From a virus (lineage: Duplodnaviria > Caudoviricetes): 29,857 nucleotides of DNA. A program made the position numbers and the translations under genes. Shown here piece after piece: positions 753-10,748 of the stretch (its first letter is position 1; each line of letters begins with the position of its first letter). The notes beneath the pieces are model-generated. The model ran no database searches. It worked only from the letters and a program-made list of their open reading frames with translations, and had not been told where the DNA came from. Location of the stretch: IMG/VR virus record IMGVR_UViG_3300033067_000050, positions 1 to 29,857 of that record; one strand, given 5' to 3'.

Positions 753-1724
753 TTAGTTTTTTATAAATGAAAATATATGTTCTATTATTGGTAAAGTCCA
801 TCCATCACCTAGTAAACTACCTGCTTTTTTTGTACTTAATATATCGCAATAGTTATCAGGAAAACCTTGTAATCTACACATTTCTATTTTGTTTACTGTT
901 CTAACAATTTTATCTTCTGTTTGGTATTTTATTTTATGTGCCATACACTCAGTTAAAGAAATAGATTTTCCTTTTACATCATATATTCTATTTTGCATAA
1001 ATGGTTGTTGGTTATTACTTTCTTTGCTTGGGTTTACTTGATAAACAATATTTATAAATTGCCTTTTAGCTCTTTTCTTAATACTTTCTTGGCTTGTACA
1101 AACTCTACTTTCGCTTTCTAATAATGCTAATGCTTTATCTCTTTCAACCTTTCCACCTGTAATAATATCTTTAAACATTATACCCCTATCTTTTGGCTGT
1201 GGTATATCAGTAATTAAATCTCCAAACATACCATCTTCTTTAGTTCTTATATTACTCCAGTAGTATCTATCTCTTAACTGAGCAGTAACTAAACTACTAT
1301 TAATTCTAACAGGATAAACTCCTAATTCTCTACTCATAATACCTACATCTAACTTAGAAGCACTTCCAACATTTTCCTGCAAAAATAATACTTTAGGGTT
1401 TAATTCTTTAATGTGGTTTAATATATCTACAAAGGTAAAGAATAAACTTGACTTCTTTCCGTTAATTCCTGCTCTTTTACCTGCAGCACTTAAATCTTGA
1501 CAAGGCGATCCTGATAAAACTAAATCTATATTACTCCAATCTATATTCCAATCTTTCCATTTAGTTACATCACCTAATTGAATAGTATCAGGGAAATGAT
1601 ATTGAGTTAATTCTATTGCGTAAGGTTTTATCTCACTTGAATAGTATTTATTTACTTTAATACCGACATTCTCTAAAGCTTGTCTGCCTGTATTCATTCC
1701 ATTAAATAAGCTTAGTACATTCAT
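753..1724 (-). CDS. DNA cytosine-C5 methyltransferase
   Basis: Motif I VLSLFNG, catalytic GSPCQDLS, QENV, QxRxR, RLQGFP. Confidence 0.93.
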   Translation of the reverse strand: MNVLSLFNGMNTGRQALENVGIKVNKYYSSEIKPYAIELTQYHFPDTIQLGDVTKWKDWNIDWSNIDLVLSGSPCQDLSAAGKRAGINGKKSSLFFTFVDILNHIKELNPKVLFLQENVGSASKLDVGIMSRELGVYPVRINSSLVTAQLRDRYYWSNIRTKEDGMFGDLITDIPQPKDRGIMFKDIITGGKVERDKALALLESESRVCTSQESIKKRAKRQFINIVYQVNPSKESNNQQPFMQNRIYDVKGKSISLTECMAHKIKYQTEDKIVRTVNKIEMCRLQGFPDNYCDILSTKKAGSLLGDGWTLPIIEHIFSFIKN

Positions 1725-2133
1725 AACCTACTTCTTTTTTAAATTGGGTTAGTAAATCTTGTATATCAATAATATAGTTTTCTTGTTCTTTTAATAACCA
1801 GTGTGCAAACTCTACAGCATATTCATCTGCAGTTACATACTTACTTATCTTTTCTCCTGCTAGTAATTGTATTGCTGCACTATACTTTTCCATTAAATCT
1901 TTATCGTAATCTTTAATATCGTTAAATACATTTATTCCGTGCAATACTGTAGCGTGGTTTTTATCCAAAGTATCTCCTATTTCTTGTAATGAATAACCCC
2001 TATCTCTTAATAGTTTATAATATATCATTCTAGCTTCTATAAACTCATACTTTCTTGTTTTAGTTGTTATATCTACTCCTGTTACTTTTTTTATTGTATT
2101 TAATATCTTAGTTTTTATTTCTTCTTTAATCAT
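1702..2133 (-). CDS. DnaA C-terminal (domain IV)-like HTH protein fused to a small phage domain
   Basis: R..EFIEARMIYY..LR...SLQEIG...KNHATVLHG matches the DnaA domain IV signature. Confidence 0.8.
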   Translation of the reverse strand: MIKEEIKTKILNTIKKVTGVDITTKTRKYEFIEARMIYYKLLRDRGYSLQEIGDTLDKNHATVLHGINVFNDIKDYDKDLMEKYSAAIQLLAGEKISKYVTADEYAVEFAHWLLKEQENYIIDIQDLLTQFKKEVGYECTKLI

Positions 2134-7437: not shown

Positions 7438-7478
7438 TGTTCAAATGTATTAATAAATTTTTAATAACTAGATAACTA
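7437..7478 (-). promoter_or_regulatory. Host-sigma promoter with upstream TAGTTATCTAGTT element
   Basis: TACATTTG at 7449..7442; 13-mer at 7478..7466 also found at 10088..10100. Confidence 0.7.
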
Positions 7479-8384
7479 AAAGTCCAATCCTTTAATATTT
7501 TTTGCTTGTAGTAGGTTTACACCTGCATAAGTAAACCCAATATTGTTAGGCATCATTCTTAATTTAATAGGTGCGTCTATTGAGGTTGGTCTACCACCAG
7601 TTTCTACTTCTTTAACTTTTCTAACGTGTACTTCACTAACCATCCAATCAGTTGGGTGCTGAGTATACCTGTGAATAGTAAATACATCATCTGCTCTATT
7701 ACCCCACTTACCACCACCCTCTACATCTGCCATATTTGGTGGAACTGGTAAACCATTATATTCGTGTTCTTTTTGGTGTACTCTTCTTAAAGCTTCTGTT
7801 ACTGCGTGGGTGTTTAACCAAATAGATATACTATTTTCTTTACAGAATAAACGCATTTCACTAGATACCTGATAATCGTATTCGTGGCTACCTACATTTT
7901 TCATTAATTCCTTATCTTTAGCTAGTGAATTATAAGGATCAATTAACAAACCATCATACTTCCATTCGTTATGTATTTCTTTAGCTTCTTTAAGCAAATC
8001 TTTGTAAGTATATAGTTTATCTACATCAATTATTTTAAAGTGCTGTAATACCCAGCTTAAACCATATTCTATTTCATCATCAGTCATTTGCTGTATAGCT
8101 TTATTTCTAGCAAATTCTAGTATTTTTCTAGCTACTGAAGTTGAAGTATTTTCAGATGAAAAGATTAACCACTTAATATTATGTTTTATTGTATACATAG
8201 CCATTAAGTAAAGTATAACAGTTGTTTTACCTACGTTTGCGTGACCAATAATAACATTAAAGTTAGCAGGTTTAAATCTTATATGTTCGTCAAATTCTGG
8301 TATGTTTATTTTAAGCCCTTCTTTTACTCTTCCGTATTTAACGTCAAGTATGTTTTTTTGTATGTCTATTAAATTTGCTAACAT
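7476..8384 (-). CDS. SF4 (DnaB/T7 gp4-like) replicative helicase, helicase domain only
   Basis: Walker A GHANVGKT, FSSEN, LLIDPYN, RADDVFTIHR. Confidence 0.88.
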   Translation of the reverse strand: MLANLIDIQKNILDVKYGRVKEGLKINIPEFDEHIRFKPANFNVIIGHANVGKTTVILYLMAMYTIKHNIKWLIFSSENTSTSVARKILEFARNKAIQQMTDDEIEYGLSWVLQHFKIIDVDKLYTYKDLLKEAKEIHNEWKYDGLLIDPYNSLAKDKELMKNVGSHEYDYQVSSEMRLFCKENSISIWLNTHAVTEALRRVHQKEHEYNGLPVPPNMADVEGGGKWGNRADDVFTIHRYTQHPTDWMVSEVHVRKVKEVETGGRPTSIDAPIKLRMMPNNIGFTYAGVNLLQAKNIKGLDF

Positions 8385-9337: not shown

Positions 9338-9513
9338 TACTTTTCTAAATTGTAAATTTGTTGTTTAATAATAGTTTTGTATTCTAAAGGGCAATCATCT
9401 TCACAAAGTTCGAATACATATGTTTTTACTTCGTTAAGGTTTTTTTCTAATTCACAGATTCGCTTTTGTAAAGCTTCTACCTGGAATCTTTGGTAATCGA
9501 TTAAATCTTTCAT
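9337..9513 (-). CDS. Small coiled-coil hypothetical protein, 58 aa (MKDLIDYQRFQVEALQKRICELE...)
   Basis: Translated by hand; follows a promoter leader; TAATG-coupled to ERF. Confidence 0.8.
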   Translation of the reverse strand: MKDLIDYQRFQVEALQKRICELEKNLNEVKTYVFELCEDDCPLEYKTIIKQQIYNLEK

Positions 9514-9523
9514 AGTGTTATTT

Positions 9524-9601
9524 GTTTTTAATTATGAAGCAAATATATAACTATTTTTCTAATACAACACTAACTATTAATACTTTAACATAATTTTAAC
9601 A
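9524..9601 (-). promoter_or_regulatory. Host-sigma promoter with phased TGTTAA boxes
   Basis: TATATTTG at 9547..9540, 4 nt, ATAATTAAAAAC; ttaaca at 9585 and 9596. Confidence 0.8.
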
Positions 9602-9607
9602 TATTGC

Positions 9608-9636
9608 AAAAAAAAAGGGCAGCTGTTACGCTACCC
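9608..9636 (-). terminator. Intrinsic terminator
   Basis: GGGTAGC-GTAACA-GCTGCCC followed by T9. Confidence 0.87.
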
Positions 9637-9663
9637 AATTTCAAACAAAAATTACTATGAAAA

Positions 9664-10041
9664 CTAAGAAATATCTTTTAATTTGTCTTTATAATGTTCT
9701 ATCATATCTTTTATTTCATCTAAACTCCATTTTTTAGTTTGTTTAGTTAGTAAGTATAATTCTTCTGATAGTTCTTTTCCTATTTTTAAGCTAAACTCAA
9801 ATTGTTTTCCCTGCTGCATTACGTTACATCCATAACATTGTGGTGCTACATTTCTTTCATCCCACCTGGTACTCATATACTGCCTACTCATAAAATGCCC
9901 ACAGTGTATCTTTTTAACTTCATAATCACGATCACAAGTAATACATTTGCAATATCCATTAACTGCTTTAGAGTATCTAATATACTTGCTAAATACTGCA
10001 TCTAATTCTTTTACTAGTTGTGATTTTGTTTTAGCTTTCAT
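9664..10041 (-). CDS. ninG: NinG/Rap-like recombination endonuclease
   Basis: LDAVFSKYIR, CITC, HCGHFMSR, TRWDERN..QC..CN. Confidence 0.88.
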   Translation of the reverse strand: MKAKTKSQLVKELDAVFSKYIRYSKAVNGYCKCITCDRDYEVKKIHCGHFMSRQYMSTRWDERNVAPQCYGCNVMQQGKQFEFSLKIGKELSEELYLLTKQTKKWSLDEIKDMIEHYKDKLKDIS

Positions 10042-10053
10042 AGTACAAATGTA
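10041..10053 (-). promoter_or_regulatory. Host-sigma promoter giving a predicted leaderless ninG mRNA
   Basis: TACATTTG-TACT-ATG. Confidence 0.7.
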
Positions 10054-10087
10054 AGCAAATTTGTTTATATTGAAAAAAATATTAAAA

Positions 10088-10139
10088 TAGTTATCTAGTT
10101 TTTGTAACTTTTTTATATATTTGTCGTATAATTAAAAAC
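10088..10139 (+). promoter_or_regulatory. Divergent plus-strand host-sigma promoter
   Basis: TAGTTATCTAGTT, TATATTTG at 10116..10123, 4 nt, then the same ATAATTAAAAAC seen at three minus-strand promoters. Confidence 0.75.
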
Positions 10140-10284
10140 GGATGCGTCCAAGACTTGCAAAACCTAATAAAAATGGAAGTTGCTTGGATCAGGTAAAATT
10201 AGAATTGTTCTTTTTTCTATAGGGGGTTTTTTCTTTCTTTTCTTTTTCTTTTTTACACTTTTTTCTTTTTCTTTTCTTTCTTTT
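10128..10284 (+). ncRNA. Candidate small RNA or primer RNA (alternatively a 26-aa ORF at 10142..10222)
   Basis: Promoter, imperfect hairpin 10147..10188, G5, then a U-rich tract; inference only. Confidence 0.4.
10229..10284. repeat. Perfect homopyrimidine mirror repeat (H-DNA motif)
   Basis: T4CT3CT4CT5CT6-ACAC-T6CT5CT4CT3CT4; 26-nt arms. Confidence 0.95.
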
Positions 10285-10295
10285 ATTATAACAAC

Positions 10296-10748
10296 TTACA
10301 ATAAACTAAAATACTTTCTAAAGCGATACACTAAATAAACTAAAATAATAACTAGTAGTAATAATAGATATTTAAAATAACTTTCTTTTCTTGTAACTTC
10401 TTTAGTTTTAGTTACAGTAATAGTTTTAGTTATATACTTAATTACTTGCTTATATTTAACATTATTTTGTTTAGTATATAAAGTGTTATCTTTTTTCTTT
10501 TCGTGTCTTAAAACAGCATTAAAATAGGTATTACCATTATAAGTAAATGGTTTTAAAGTATCTTTAGCAAATACAGTTAGTAAATCTGTAGTTACATCGT
10601 ATTTAATAGTAACATTACTACTATCAGTTAAAGTAGTAGTAGTTTCTTTTGAAGTTTCTTGTTTAATTTCTGCTTTATTTACAATAGCTTTTCTGCTACC
10701 ACAACTAAATAAAAATAAACTAATAATTAATATATAAAGTTTTACCAT
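10296..10748 (-). CDS. Putative unimolecular spanin (lipoprotein)
   Basis: Signal peptide with lipobox LFSC, Thr-rich middle, C-terminal TM helix; follows the endolysin. Confidence 0.78.
   Translation of the reverse strand: MVKLYILIISLFLFSCGSRKAIVNKAEIKQETSKETTTTLTDSSNVTIKYDVTTDLLTVFAKDTLKPFTYNGNTYFNAVLRHEKKKDNTLYTKQNNVKYKQVIKYITKTITVTKTKEVTRKESYFKYLLLLLVIILVYLVYRFRKYFSLL

What the first reader, a model, noticed from the sequence alone, without database searches (positions are those of the whole stretch)
10229..10284. Perfect laddered homopyrimidine mirror repeat: a candidate functional triplex (H-DNA) element
Seen: T4-C-T3-C-T4-C-T5-C-T6 [ACAC] T6-C-T5-C-T4-C-T3-C-T4, with 26-nt arms, no mismatch and a 4-nt loop. 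It is a mirror repeat, not an inverted or simple tandem one. The 3-4-5-6 ladder fixes one register and is hard to explain by slippage. It lies in the largest non-coding gap, between lysis and replication modules, where I saw no hairpin terminator. Established: such H-palindromes form intramolecular triplexes under negative supercoiling, expose a single strand and can stall polymerases. Inference: a selected structure acting as a helicase-loading site, transcription barrier or packaging signal. I know of no described phage system like it, but could not search.
Basis: partly seen in the sequence, partly recalled or inferred. Interest (0 to 1): 0.88.

Follow-up and report, generated by a model that had tools for sequence, protein, structure and literature searches.

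The report
Triplex-tailed small RNA of aquatic phages
The mirror repeat is real and is the tail of a short non-coding element shared by many lake and sea phages, whose pyrimidine arms change together in mirror register as a triple helix would require, so it is likely a naturally selected triplex that ends a small phage RNA.

Summary
In detail: 26-nt arms and a 4-nt loop, against chance maxima of 9-15 nt. The mirror is the 3' part of a ~170-bp element: Bacteroidota -7 promoter box, a structured head with a fully covarying stem, then three pyrimidine arms (Y0-G linker-Y1-loop-Y2), mirrored twice. In relatives found by the head alone, 112 of 139 distinct elements carry the mirror; arm run lengths take 23 forms, with at least 18 changes shared by both arms on a NinG tree. 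A second head class in another phage group repeats this (71 of 92). The element occurs in both orientations, other 3' modules can replace the mirror, and near-complete phages 87% identical to this one carry a GIY-YIG gene instead, so it is not an essential origin or packaging signal. Best reading (0.4): a small RNA gene whose tail forms a triplex on its own purine strand and halts polymerase; main rival: a triplex-anchored primer RNA. No Rfam, isolate-phage or literature match was found. The scan had not noted this sequence; its earlier triplex notes concern other DNA. Triplex formation and transcription are untested.

The parts
10116..10123 (+). Bacteroidota -7 promoter box (TAHHTTTG type); predicted start of the RNA at about 10128
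   Evidence: Sequence; consensus and 4-5 nt spacing from PMC6847099 passages; a box in 111 of 132 distinct class-I upstream regions (79 strict) against 17.2 expected
10140..10149 (+). Optional 5' mini-hairpin (3-bp stem, 4-nt loop), whose stem differs in step between relatives of the window's clade
   Evidence: Read by eye; not tested statistically
10152..10196 (+). Conserved structured head: ACTT, 4-bp stem (10157-10160 with 10180-10183), A-rich loop, then a TTGGAWC-type motif; single copy in the genome
   Evidence: 228 of 228 cells paired, 46 double changes, covariation 0.568 vs 0.106 shuffled; 16 G.T and 0 A.C pairs on this strand among 130 distinct heads; one match in G000
10208..10216 (+). 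Arm Y0: short pyrimidine tract that mirrors the start of arm Y1 (second mirror, 'A')
   Evidence: First T run equal on both sides in 50 of 57 distinct cases (shuffle mean 28.6, max 43), first two runs in 42 of 57 (mean 13.1, max 26)
10217..10226 (+). Linker with a G cluster
   Evidence: GG within 45 nt behind the head in 108 of 111 mirror-class elements, GGG in 27
10227..10254 (+).
10255..10258 (+). 4-nt loop of the long mirror ('B'); sequence free, length kept
   Evidence: 23 different loop sequences; 4 nt in 96 of 111
10259..10284 (+). Arm Y2 (right arm), ending 11 nt from the stop codon of the convergent lipoprotein-like gene
10046..10053 (-). Divergent -7 box, 4 nt before the NinG start codon; kept in relatives that lack the element
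   Evidence: Sequence; role inferred from the consensus
9664..10041 (-). NinG/Rap endonuclease gene (flank)
   Evidence: PF05766 E 7e-14; phrog_5034
10296..10748 (-). Lipoprotein-like gene with C-terminal hydrophobic stretch behind the endolysin (flank; spanin-like by inference)
   Evidence: Translation; phrog_5885 unknown function

Best explanation
The mirror repeat is the 3' module of a small, dispensable, likely transcribed non-coding RNA gene, and it likely folds into a triple helix on the gene's own purine strand that would halt RNA polymerase just past the structured head. Shown: promoter-like box, covarying single-strand stem, three pyrimidine arms in double mirror symmetry, paired run-length changes, either orientation to the neighbouring genes, replacement by other 3' modules or by a GIY-YIG gene. 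Inferred: host sigma-A polymerase starts near 10128; unwinding and negative supercoiling let a flanking arm (Y0 first, Y2 later) fold back parallel onto the purine strand of the central arm as T.A-T and C+.G-C triads; the stall over a U-rich hybrid ends the transcript without a strong hairpin and, in this phage, also insulates the unit from the converging late transcript. The head would be the working part of the RNA, probably a protein-binding site; its partner is not identified.
For: Mirror register is kept through at least 18 shared changes on a NinG tree (left 19, right 21, joint 22; 84 of 88 tips symmetric); 15 of 18 distinct left registers match the right (shuffle mean 0.89, max 8); re-centred chimeras reach 16 nt in 15.8% of 506 against 19 of 23 native types; only 2 of 40 arm pairs are also direct repeats. 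Parallel-triplex hallmarks: C:C at 86 of 151 non-T:T positions, no CC step in 40 arm pairs, 4-nt loop in 96 of 111. The partner must vary with the arms: no purine copy longer than 10 nt lies on the same strand of the window and the head loop does not follow the arm registers, which leaves the complementary strand. RNA-gene traits: -7 box in 111 of 132, G.U-tolerant stem with strand bias, a second -7 box behind the mirror in 26 of 102 against 6.2 expected, sense in 56 and antisense in 9 of 68 mirror-class loci, head next to tRNA genes in some phages, one relative (L284) with a plain hairpin plus U tract in the mirror's place (read by eye). H-DNA blocks RNA polymerase in vitro (PMC4538819 abstract; PMC11667243 passages).
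Against: No triplex, transcript or RNA end was observed. The review passages say blockage is seen with the purine-rich strand as non-template, the opposite of the head transcript's orientation; it fits only the converging late transcript of the window's clade, 9 of 68 loci. Substitutions do not fix one isomer: in mirror B class I has C:G 27, G:C 3, G:G 9, A:A 7 (clade-biased) and class II has G:C 6, C:G 5; G:G and A:A pairs are poor triads. A terminator alone does not need two mirrors or 20-29-nt arms. Class II elements show no -7 box directly upstream (read by eye). 22 of 28 non-mirror modules carry G clusters on the sense strand (16 on the antisense strand), which suits an R-loop as well.
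Confidence: 0.4

Rival explanations
1. Triplex-anchored primer: the U-rich transcript would stay hybridised to the purine template, clamped by a folded-back third arm (or bound to the strand freed by H-DNA), giving a persistent R-loop that primes an auxiliary replication origin, as CSB II does in mitochondria with a G-quadruplex.
For: Promoter, short folded RNA, G cluster, then a non-B block is the layout of RNA-primed origins (CSB II: starts of abstracts PMC3488243 and PMC6317783; ColE1 and T4 origins recalled). Alternative modules include G6-7-TAA-G6-7 (L171, L178, L183, L396). No primase, polymerase or O-like initiator among 37 window ORFs against PHROGs and 30 against Pfam, nor among 54 chosen proteins of five relatives. 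A second mirror whose G substitutions fall in Y0 and never in Y1 alone suits a co-transcriptional clamp. Erf, NinG and a PD-(D/E)XK nuclease could make such an origin dispensable.
Against: G001 (100% complete) and G002 (94%) share the replication genes at about 87% identity and lack the element everywhere. In the window's clade priming would run head-on to all genes. In class II phages it lies inside an operon between sigma-like and packaging-region genes, near tRNAs in some. A DnaA-type HTH protein (1702-2133) is a candidate conventional initiator.
Confidence: 0.22
2. DNA-only H-DNA or nodule DNA: the three arms would form a triplex (or two, with the central segment giving one strand to each side) that exposes single strand for recombination or helicase loading at the module junction, the promoter only supplying supercoils.
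For: The sequence meets the H-motif definition; H-yr (nodule) DNA is described in PMC11667243 passages and three segments in double mirror are its geometry; NinG, Erf and a helicase lie next door; the slot is highly variable among relatives.
Against: It does not explain a conserved, strand-specific folded head that also occurs with RNA-like 3' modules; nodule geometry wants uninterrupted outer arms, but G substitutions fall mostly in the outer arms; class II sits beside other genes.
Confidence: 0.13
3. RNA-only triple helix (ENE-like): the U-rich arms of the released RNA would clamp an A-rich tail such as added poly(A) and protect the 3' end.
For: U runs facing U runs with occasional C-G or G-C cross pairs, and in L552, L554 and L606 a small hairpin in place of the loop, resemble ENE internal loops (recalled); other 3' modules are RNA-like folds.
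Against: C:C dominates the separators (86 in class I, 36 in class II), which asks for G in the partner; no encoded A/G tract on the same strand; no closing stems in most elements.
Confidence: 0.1
4. No triplex: the symmetry would serve protein binding or DNA bending, or arise from slippage in a (T4-5C)n microsatellite.
For: Pure (T5C)n arrays are trivially mirror-symmetric and common in viral contigs; long human mirror repeats derive from STRs (PMC12214015 abstract); A:A and G:G separators are tolerated.
Against: Irregular ladders in 23 types, matched far beyond chimeras; dimeric proteins read inverted and iteron proteins direct repeats (established), and only 2 of 40 pairs are direct repeats; the loop varies in sequence but not in length.
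Confidence: 0.08

Closest known systems
H-DNA / H-palindromes (H-y3, H-y5, H-yr nodule, H-loop; PMC11667243, passages read)
   Same: Homopyrimidine mirror with short loop; predicted T.A-T and C+.G-C triads; next to a promoter
   Different: Not an STR; three arms in double mirror; kept by paired changes across phage lineages; tail of a conserved structured unit. The review's main text has no occurrence of 'bacteriophage' or 'prokaryot'
Bacterial intrastrand triplex repeats (BoxC / PIT / TM(ECO); PMC4666352, passages read)
   Same: Prokaryotic, intergenic, three arms
   Different: Those carry purine and pyrimidine arms on one strand and are multi-copy; here all three arms are pyrimidine, the purine partner is the other strand and the head is single copy
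RNA-primed origins: mitochondrial CSB II (abstract starts), ColE1 RNA II and T4 ori(uvsY) (recalled)
   Same: Promoter, short RNA, G cluster, non-canonical block; one variant has two G tracts
   Different: U-rich mirror instead of G-quadruplex; dispensable; origin activity untested
ENE / MALAT1 3' triple helices (recalled)
   Same: Facing U runs with C interruptions near a predicted RNA 3' end
   Different: No flanking stems in most elements and no A-rich partner in the RNA; phage of bacteria
HK022 put RNA and other promoter-proximal phage RNAs (recalled)
   Same: Folded RNA right behind a promoter, followed by U-rich sequence, upstream of nin-type genes in one clade
   Different: Antisense to all genes in the window's clade; downstream genes often have their own -7 box; no Rfam match

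Membership tests
H-DNA motif | Homopurine/homopyrimidine mirror repeat with short spacer | tested here: met
   relatives
H-DNA motif | Symmetry, not sequence, is what is kept | tested here: met
H-DNA motif | Supercoil- and pH-dependent triplex with single-strand half | not testable with these tools
   Needs probing and 2D gels
Nodule (H-yr) DNA | Central segment donates one strand to each flanking uninterrupted duplex | tested here: inconclusive
   Double mirror present, but G substitutions lie mostly in the flanks
Intrastrand triplex repeats (BoxC/PIT/TM) | Purine arm and complementary pyrimidine arm on the same strand | tested here: not met
   Longest purine complement of either arm on the + strand of the window is 10 nt, far away
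Intrastrand triplex repeats (BoxC/PIT/TM) | Dispersed in many copies | tested here: not met
   One head in G000; one long mirror
ENE / MALAT1 triple helix | U-rich internal loop between helices plus A-rich 3' tract | tested here: not met
   No A-rich partner on the strand; predicted fold leaves most of the long mirror unpaired; family features recalled
RNA-primed origin (CSB II / ColE1 type) | Promoter upstream of a G-rich block | tested here: met
RNA-primed origin (CSB II / ColE1 type) | Required for replication of the replicon | tested here: not met
   Absent from complete close relatives
RNA-primed origin (CSB II / ColE1 type) | Persistent hybrid extended by DNA polymerase | not testable with these tools
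   Needs in vitro transcription and priming assays
Described structured RNA families (Rfam 15) | Match to a covariance model | tested here: not met
   only neighbouring tRNAs reach the gathering score
Intrinsic terminator | G+C-rich hairpin followed by a U tract | tested here: not met
   None at the element on either strand; only a weak G.U-rich hairpin before Y1 in the predicted fold

The most novel reading that the evidence does not exclude
A phage small RNA is tethered to its own gene by a natural RNA-DNA triple helix: the three mirrored arms clamp the purine template during transcription, leaving a persistent R-loop whose 3' end primes an auxiliary replication origin and whose head recruits the replication machinery. 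It would be a triplex counterpart of the mitochondrial G-quadruplex primer, and a physiological role for an H-motif in a prokaryotic virus.
Probability: 0.2. Interest if true: 0.95.

Novelty: categorically new. Interest (0 to 1): 0.8.

Why it matters
[quoted passage not shown] Here a non-STR mirror is kept by paired insertions and deletions over many lineages, which is comparative evidence of selection for Hoogsteen register, like covariation for RNA helices. The element is short, comes with natural variants, natural replacements (hairpin, pseudoknot-like, G-tract) and a natural knock-out allele, so the question of whether a triplex does useful work in a prokaryotic system becomes directly testable. 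It also adds an unlisted phage structured-RNA candidate found in two phage groups. The rating 'categorically new' refers to the whole unit; the mirror alone is an H-motif by definition.

Tried and rejected
Isolate phages: no match of the element; the closest terminase hit is Nonlabens phage P12024L/S, 56%, which has its own primase gene and no head. GTDB genomes: no match of the head pattern or of the helicase, so the host (Bacteroidota) is inferred from promoter boxes and protein hits. RNA-library contigs of four runs cover NinG and the head up to about 10213-10225, but contigs cannot show strand or ends and may be DNA: no evidence either way. No reads were laid across the mirror, so run lengths rest on agreement between assemblies. 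The 17 loci and the 122 were found with the mirror in the pattern and are not used for the symmetry counts; one search served only to find other heads (40 of its 122 loci lie in open frames, many others are plain (T5C)n). A reading of the head as pistol, HDV-like or hairpin ribozyme (recalled consensus, by eye) was dropped: pairings do not hold in variants and Rfam gives no hit. The head's A-rich loop as purine strand for Y0/Y1 was dropped: it does not follow the arm registers. A coding reading (ORF 10180-10338 +, or a Lys/Glu-rich linker) was dropped: run lengths change by 1-2 nt. GC skew is uninformative, all genes being on one strand. Two-sequence consensus folding of the pseudoknot-like module is too thin to rely on. 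Supplements: six files of PMC10690425 were searched for five head words without a hit, three files were not searched; the supplement of PMC5737381 could not be read. The head could be listed in either.

Full report
Observation. Window 10229-10284 is a perfect mirror repeat, 26-nt arms around a 4-nt loop; the next-best mirror in the 29.9-kb window has 13-nt arms. The longest arm in 200 order-3 Markov simulations was 9-15 nt. The window is a phage record rated 93% complete with its genes on the minus strand: terminase, portal, tape measure, holin, endolysin, a lipoprotein-like gene, NinG, Erf, a DnaB-type helicase domain, a sigma-like gene and a PD-(D/E)XK nuclease. The best terminase and helicase hits are phages of Flavobacteriia. 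The mirror lies in the longest intergenic gap, 11 nt from the stop of the lipoprotein-like gene; the only terminator-like site in 9500-10500 is behind NinG.

The mirror is the tail of a larger unit. Exact 18-mers from the gap found relatives that share about 100 nt upstream of the mirror. With the window that makes 238 loci; 7 were dropped as too short, leaving 231 and 139 distinct downstream sequences. The unit reads, on the plus strand: a -7 box (10116-10123), an optional mini-hairpin, the head (10152-10196), a short pyrimidine arm Y0, a G-containing linker, arm Y1, loop, arm Y2. A TAHHTTT(G/A) box lies within 50 nt upstream in 111 of 132 distinct cases (79 strict) against 17.2 expected; the consensus and its 4-5-nt spacing to the start are from PMC6847099 (passages). 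The head has a 4-bp stem with all cells paired and 46 double changes in 38 diverse rows (covariation 0.568 against 0.106; the two C-G pairs and one U were fixed by the search pattern). Among 130 distinct heads the stem shows 16 G.T and no A.C pair on this strand, so the folded strand is the pyrimidine-arm strand, RNA or single-stranded DNA.

The symmetry is selected. 112 of the 139 distinct elements have a mirror score of 14 or more and 81 have perfect arms of 16 nt or more. In the T-rich class (111 of 139, defined without symmetry) there are 40 distinct arm pairs in 23 run-length types; 31 of 40 have identical register and only 2 of 40 are also direct repeats; 15 of 18 distinct left registers match their right arm, against a shuffle mean of 0.89 and maximum of 8. 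Because arms were defined by a mirror search, I repeated the control with re-centring: 15.8% of 506 chimeras reach 16 nt, against 19 of 23 native types. On a NinG tree (130 loci examined, 88 distinct tips with NinG) the left arm needs 19 changes, the right 21 and both together 22, so at least 18 are shared; 84 of 88 tips are symmetric. Transfer of whole elements between phages could inflate that count, but each of the 23 types still had to arise by paired change. No arm holds a CC step and the loop is 4 nt in 96 of 111 while its sequence varies: both fit a parallel pyrimidine triplex (established knowledge).

A third arm. Y0 mirrors the start of Y1: of 111 elements 108 could be parsed, giving 57 distinct cases, with the first run equal in 50 (shuffle mean 28.6, max 43) and the first two runs in 42 (13.1, max 26). 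The window has 6|6 where its closest relatives have 5|5. Some variants keep only this short mirror (L138, L188, L284, L372). G replaces C in Y0 opposite C in Y1 (3 class I and 29 class II distinct cases) and never the reverse (few independent events). In the long mirror the class I separators are C:C 86, C:G 27, G:G 9, A:A 7, G:C 3 and others 19, class II C:C 36, G:C 6, C:G 5. This leans towards the central purine tract as target and the flanks as third strands, but does not settle the isomer. The purine partner is not on the same strand, so this is not a BoxC/PIT-type intrastrand triplex (PMC4666352 passages).

A second class. A scan for a common mirror core showed further heads with the same ACTT-stem-TTGG core and a short loop. 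A pattern for that head alone gave 120 loci, 114 usable, 92 distinct; 71 carry a mirror and 56 a perfect one of 16 nt or more, in new ladders up to 29 nt. These phages are another group: the element lies behind resolvase-like and sigma-like genes and before ParB-like and, by eye, small-terminase-like genes, near tRNAs in 2 of 8 loci scanned, with a pseudoknot-like 5' part and no -7 box directly upstream (by eye).

Context and dispensability. Class I sits between lysis and NinG-type genes, sense to both neighbours in 56 and antisense in 9 of 68 mirror-class loci, the window among the latter. Behind the mirror a second -7 box occurs in 26 of 102 cases against 6.2 expected, so the unit looks self-contained. 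28 of 139 distinct elements are outside the T-rich class: pseudoknot-like folds (L160, L180, L226), paired G tracts (L171, L178, L183, L396), hairpins, longer structured RNAs, one behind a tRNA. Only 11 of 80 NinG-anchored loci hit the class I head model. Among the 22 with NinG at least 90% identical, 11 carry the element and 11 a 162-aa GIY-YIG gene in its place, none both. G001 (100% complete) and G002 (94%) align to 23.4 and 24.0 kb of the window at about 87% identity, replication genes included, and hold no head and no pyrimidine mirror anywhere. This is the strongest result against an essential origin, helicase-loading or packaging signal.

Mechanism. I read the unit as a small RNA gene whose 3' module forms a triplex on its own purine strand during transcription and stops polymerase (0.4). 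H-DNA blocks T7 polymerase in vitro (PMC4538819 abstract), but the review passages report blockage with the purine strand as non-template (PMC11667243), which is the orientation of the converging late transcript in this phage and not of the head transcript; this weakens the reading. The main rival (0.22) keeps the RNA clamped on the template as a primer: no primase, polymerase or O-like initiator was found among the window ORFs scanned (37 against PHROGs, 30 against Pfam) or 54 chosen proteins of five relatives, G clusters follow the head in most modules, and CSB II works this way with a quadruplex (abstract starts); the missing element in G001 and a DnaA-type HTH gene count against it. DNA-only H-DNA or nodule DNA (0.13), an ENE-like RNA clamp (0.1) and non-triplex explanations (0.08) are less likely. 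That a triplex of some kind is the selected structure I put at about 0.75-0.8; nothing here shows it physically, and RNA-library contigs were uninformative.

Novelty. No Rfam family, isolate phage or GTDB genome holds the element. Eight full-text searches returned no paper on a conserved H-motif or such an RNA in phages, judged from listings and abstract starts; subscription papers are not covered, and large ncRNA catalogues were only partly searchable. Mirror repeats are reported as normally represented in most prokaryotic phyla (PMC4060949 passages), and triplex function in bacteria as unresolved (PMC13463272 passages). Names of ColE1, T4 origins, ENE, put RNA and triad rules are recalled, not from calls. 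Verdict: real, selected, part of an undescribed element; interest 0.8.

Noticed in passing
L056:1989-2477 (+); also L057, L058, L063-L066, L072-L075: A 162-aa GIY-YIG gene under its own -7 box replaces the element in half of the closest relatives, with the last 50 bp of the lipoprotein-like gene also changed; looks like free-standing homing.
   Followed up: partly
L160, L180 (= L062), L226, L352, behind the head: Alternative 3' module with three interlocked pairings (GATTG/CAATC, a 12-13-bp AT-rich stem, CACCC/GGGTG), a possible knotted pseudoknot; no Rfam hit.
   Followed up: partly
L319 and L360, about 100 nt upstream of the head: A second structured RNA-like unit with two stems whose arms differ in step between the two loci, ending in a U8 tract; behind the head a 130-nt structured stretch ending in GGT repeats.
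   Followed up: no
L537, L535, L548, L534, 40 nt upstream of the class II head: H-type pseudoknot-like 5' part with covarying stems (CTGAG/CTCAG, TTCG/CGAA, CTGCG/CGCAG; GTC/GAC).
   Followed up: no
L093, L096, L104, L112, upstream of the gene before NinG: A different short conserved element with a TTTGGTGGGT-type core occupies the same junction in phages without the head.
   Followed up: no
L082, L106, L087, L080, L081, lysis-to-early junction: AT-rich direct repeats, iteron-like, at the same junction in more distant relatives.
   Followed up: no
L134-L213, upstream neighbour in many sense-orientation loci: A 41-44-aa very basic peptide ending in GQGK or GQGR often lies just before the element, and also in phages without it.
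   Followed up: no
L520, L507, L463, L498, L422/L516, L441, L510/L511: Non-coding pyrimidine mirrors (16-28-nt arms) with odd loops and no recognisable head in other viral contigs; L520 has a purine mirror just before it.
   Followed up: no
window 1702-2133 (-): 143-aa protein with a DnaA C-terminal HTH domain (PF08299, E 1e-9), a candidate initiator or regulator; two copies in G001.
   Followed up: partly
window 7476-8384 (-): DnaB-type helicase ATPase domain with no primase domain and no primase gene recognised in the window.
   Followed up: partly
L143 and L350: In a larger phage the head starts about 15 nt behind a tRNA (CAT anticodon) and is followed by a 150-nt structured stretch.
   Followed up: no
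L654:851-4353 (G006): Cluster of 7-deazaguanine genes (tgt-like, queC, queD, queE, folE) in an element-bearing phage.
   Followed up: no
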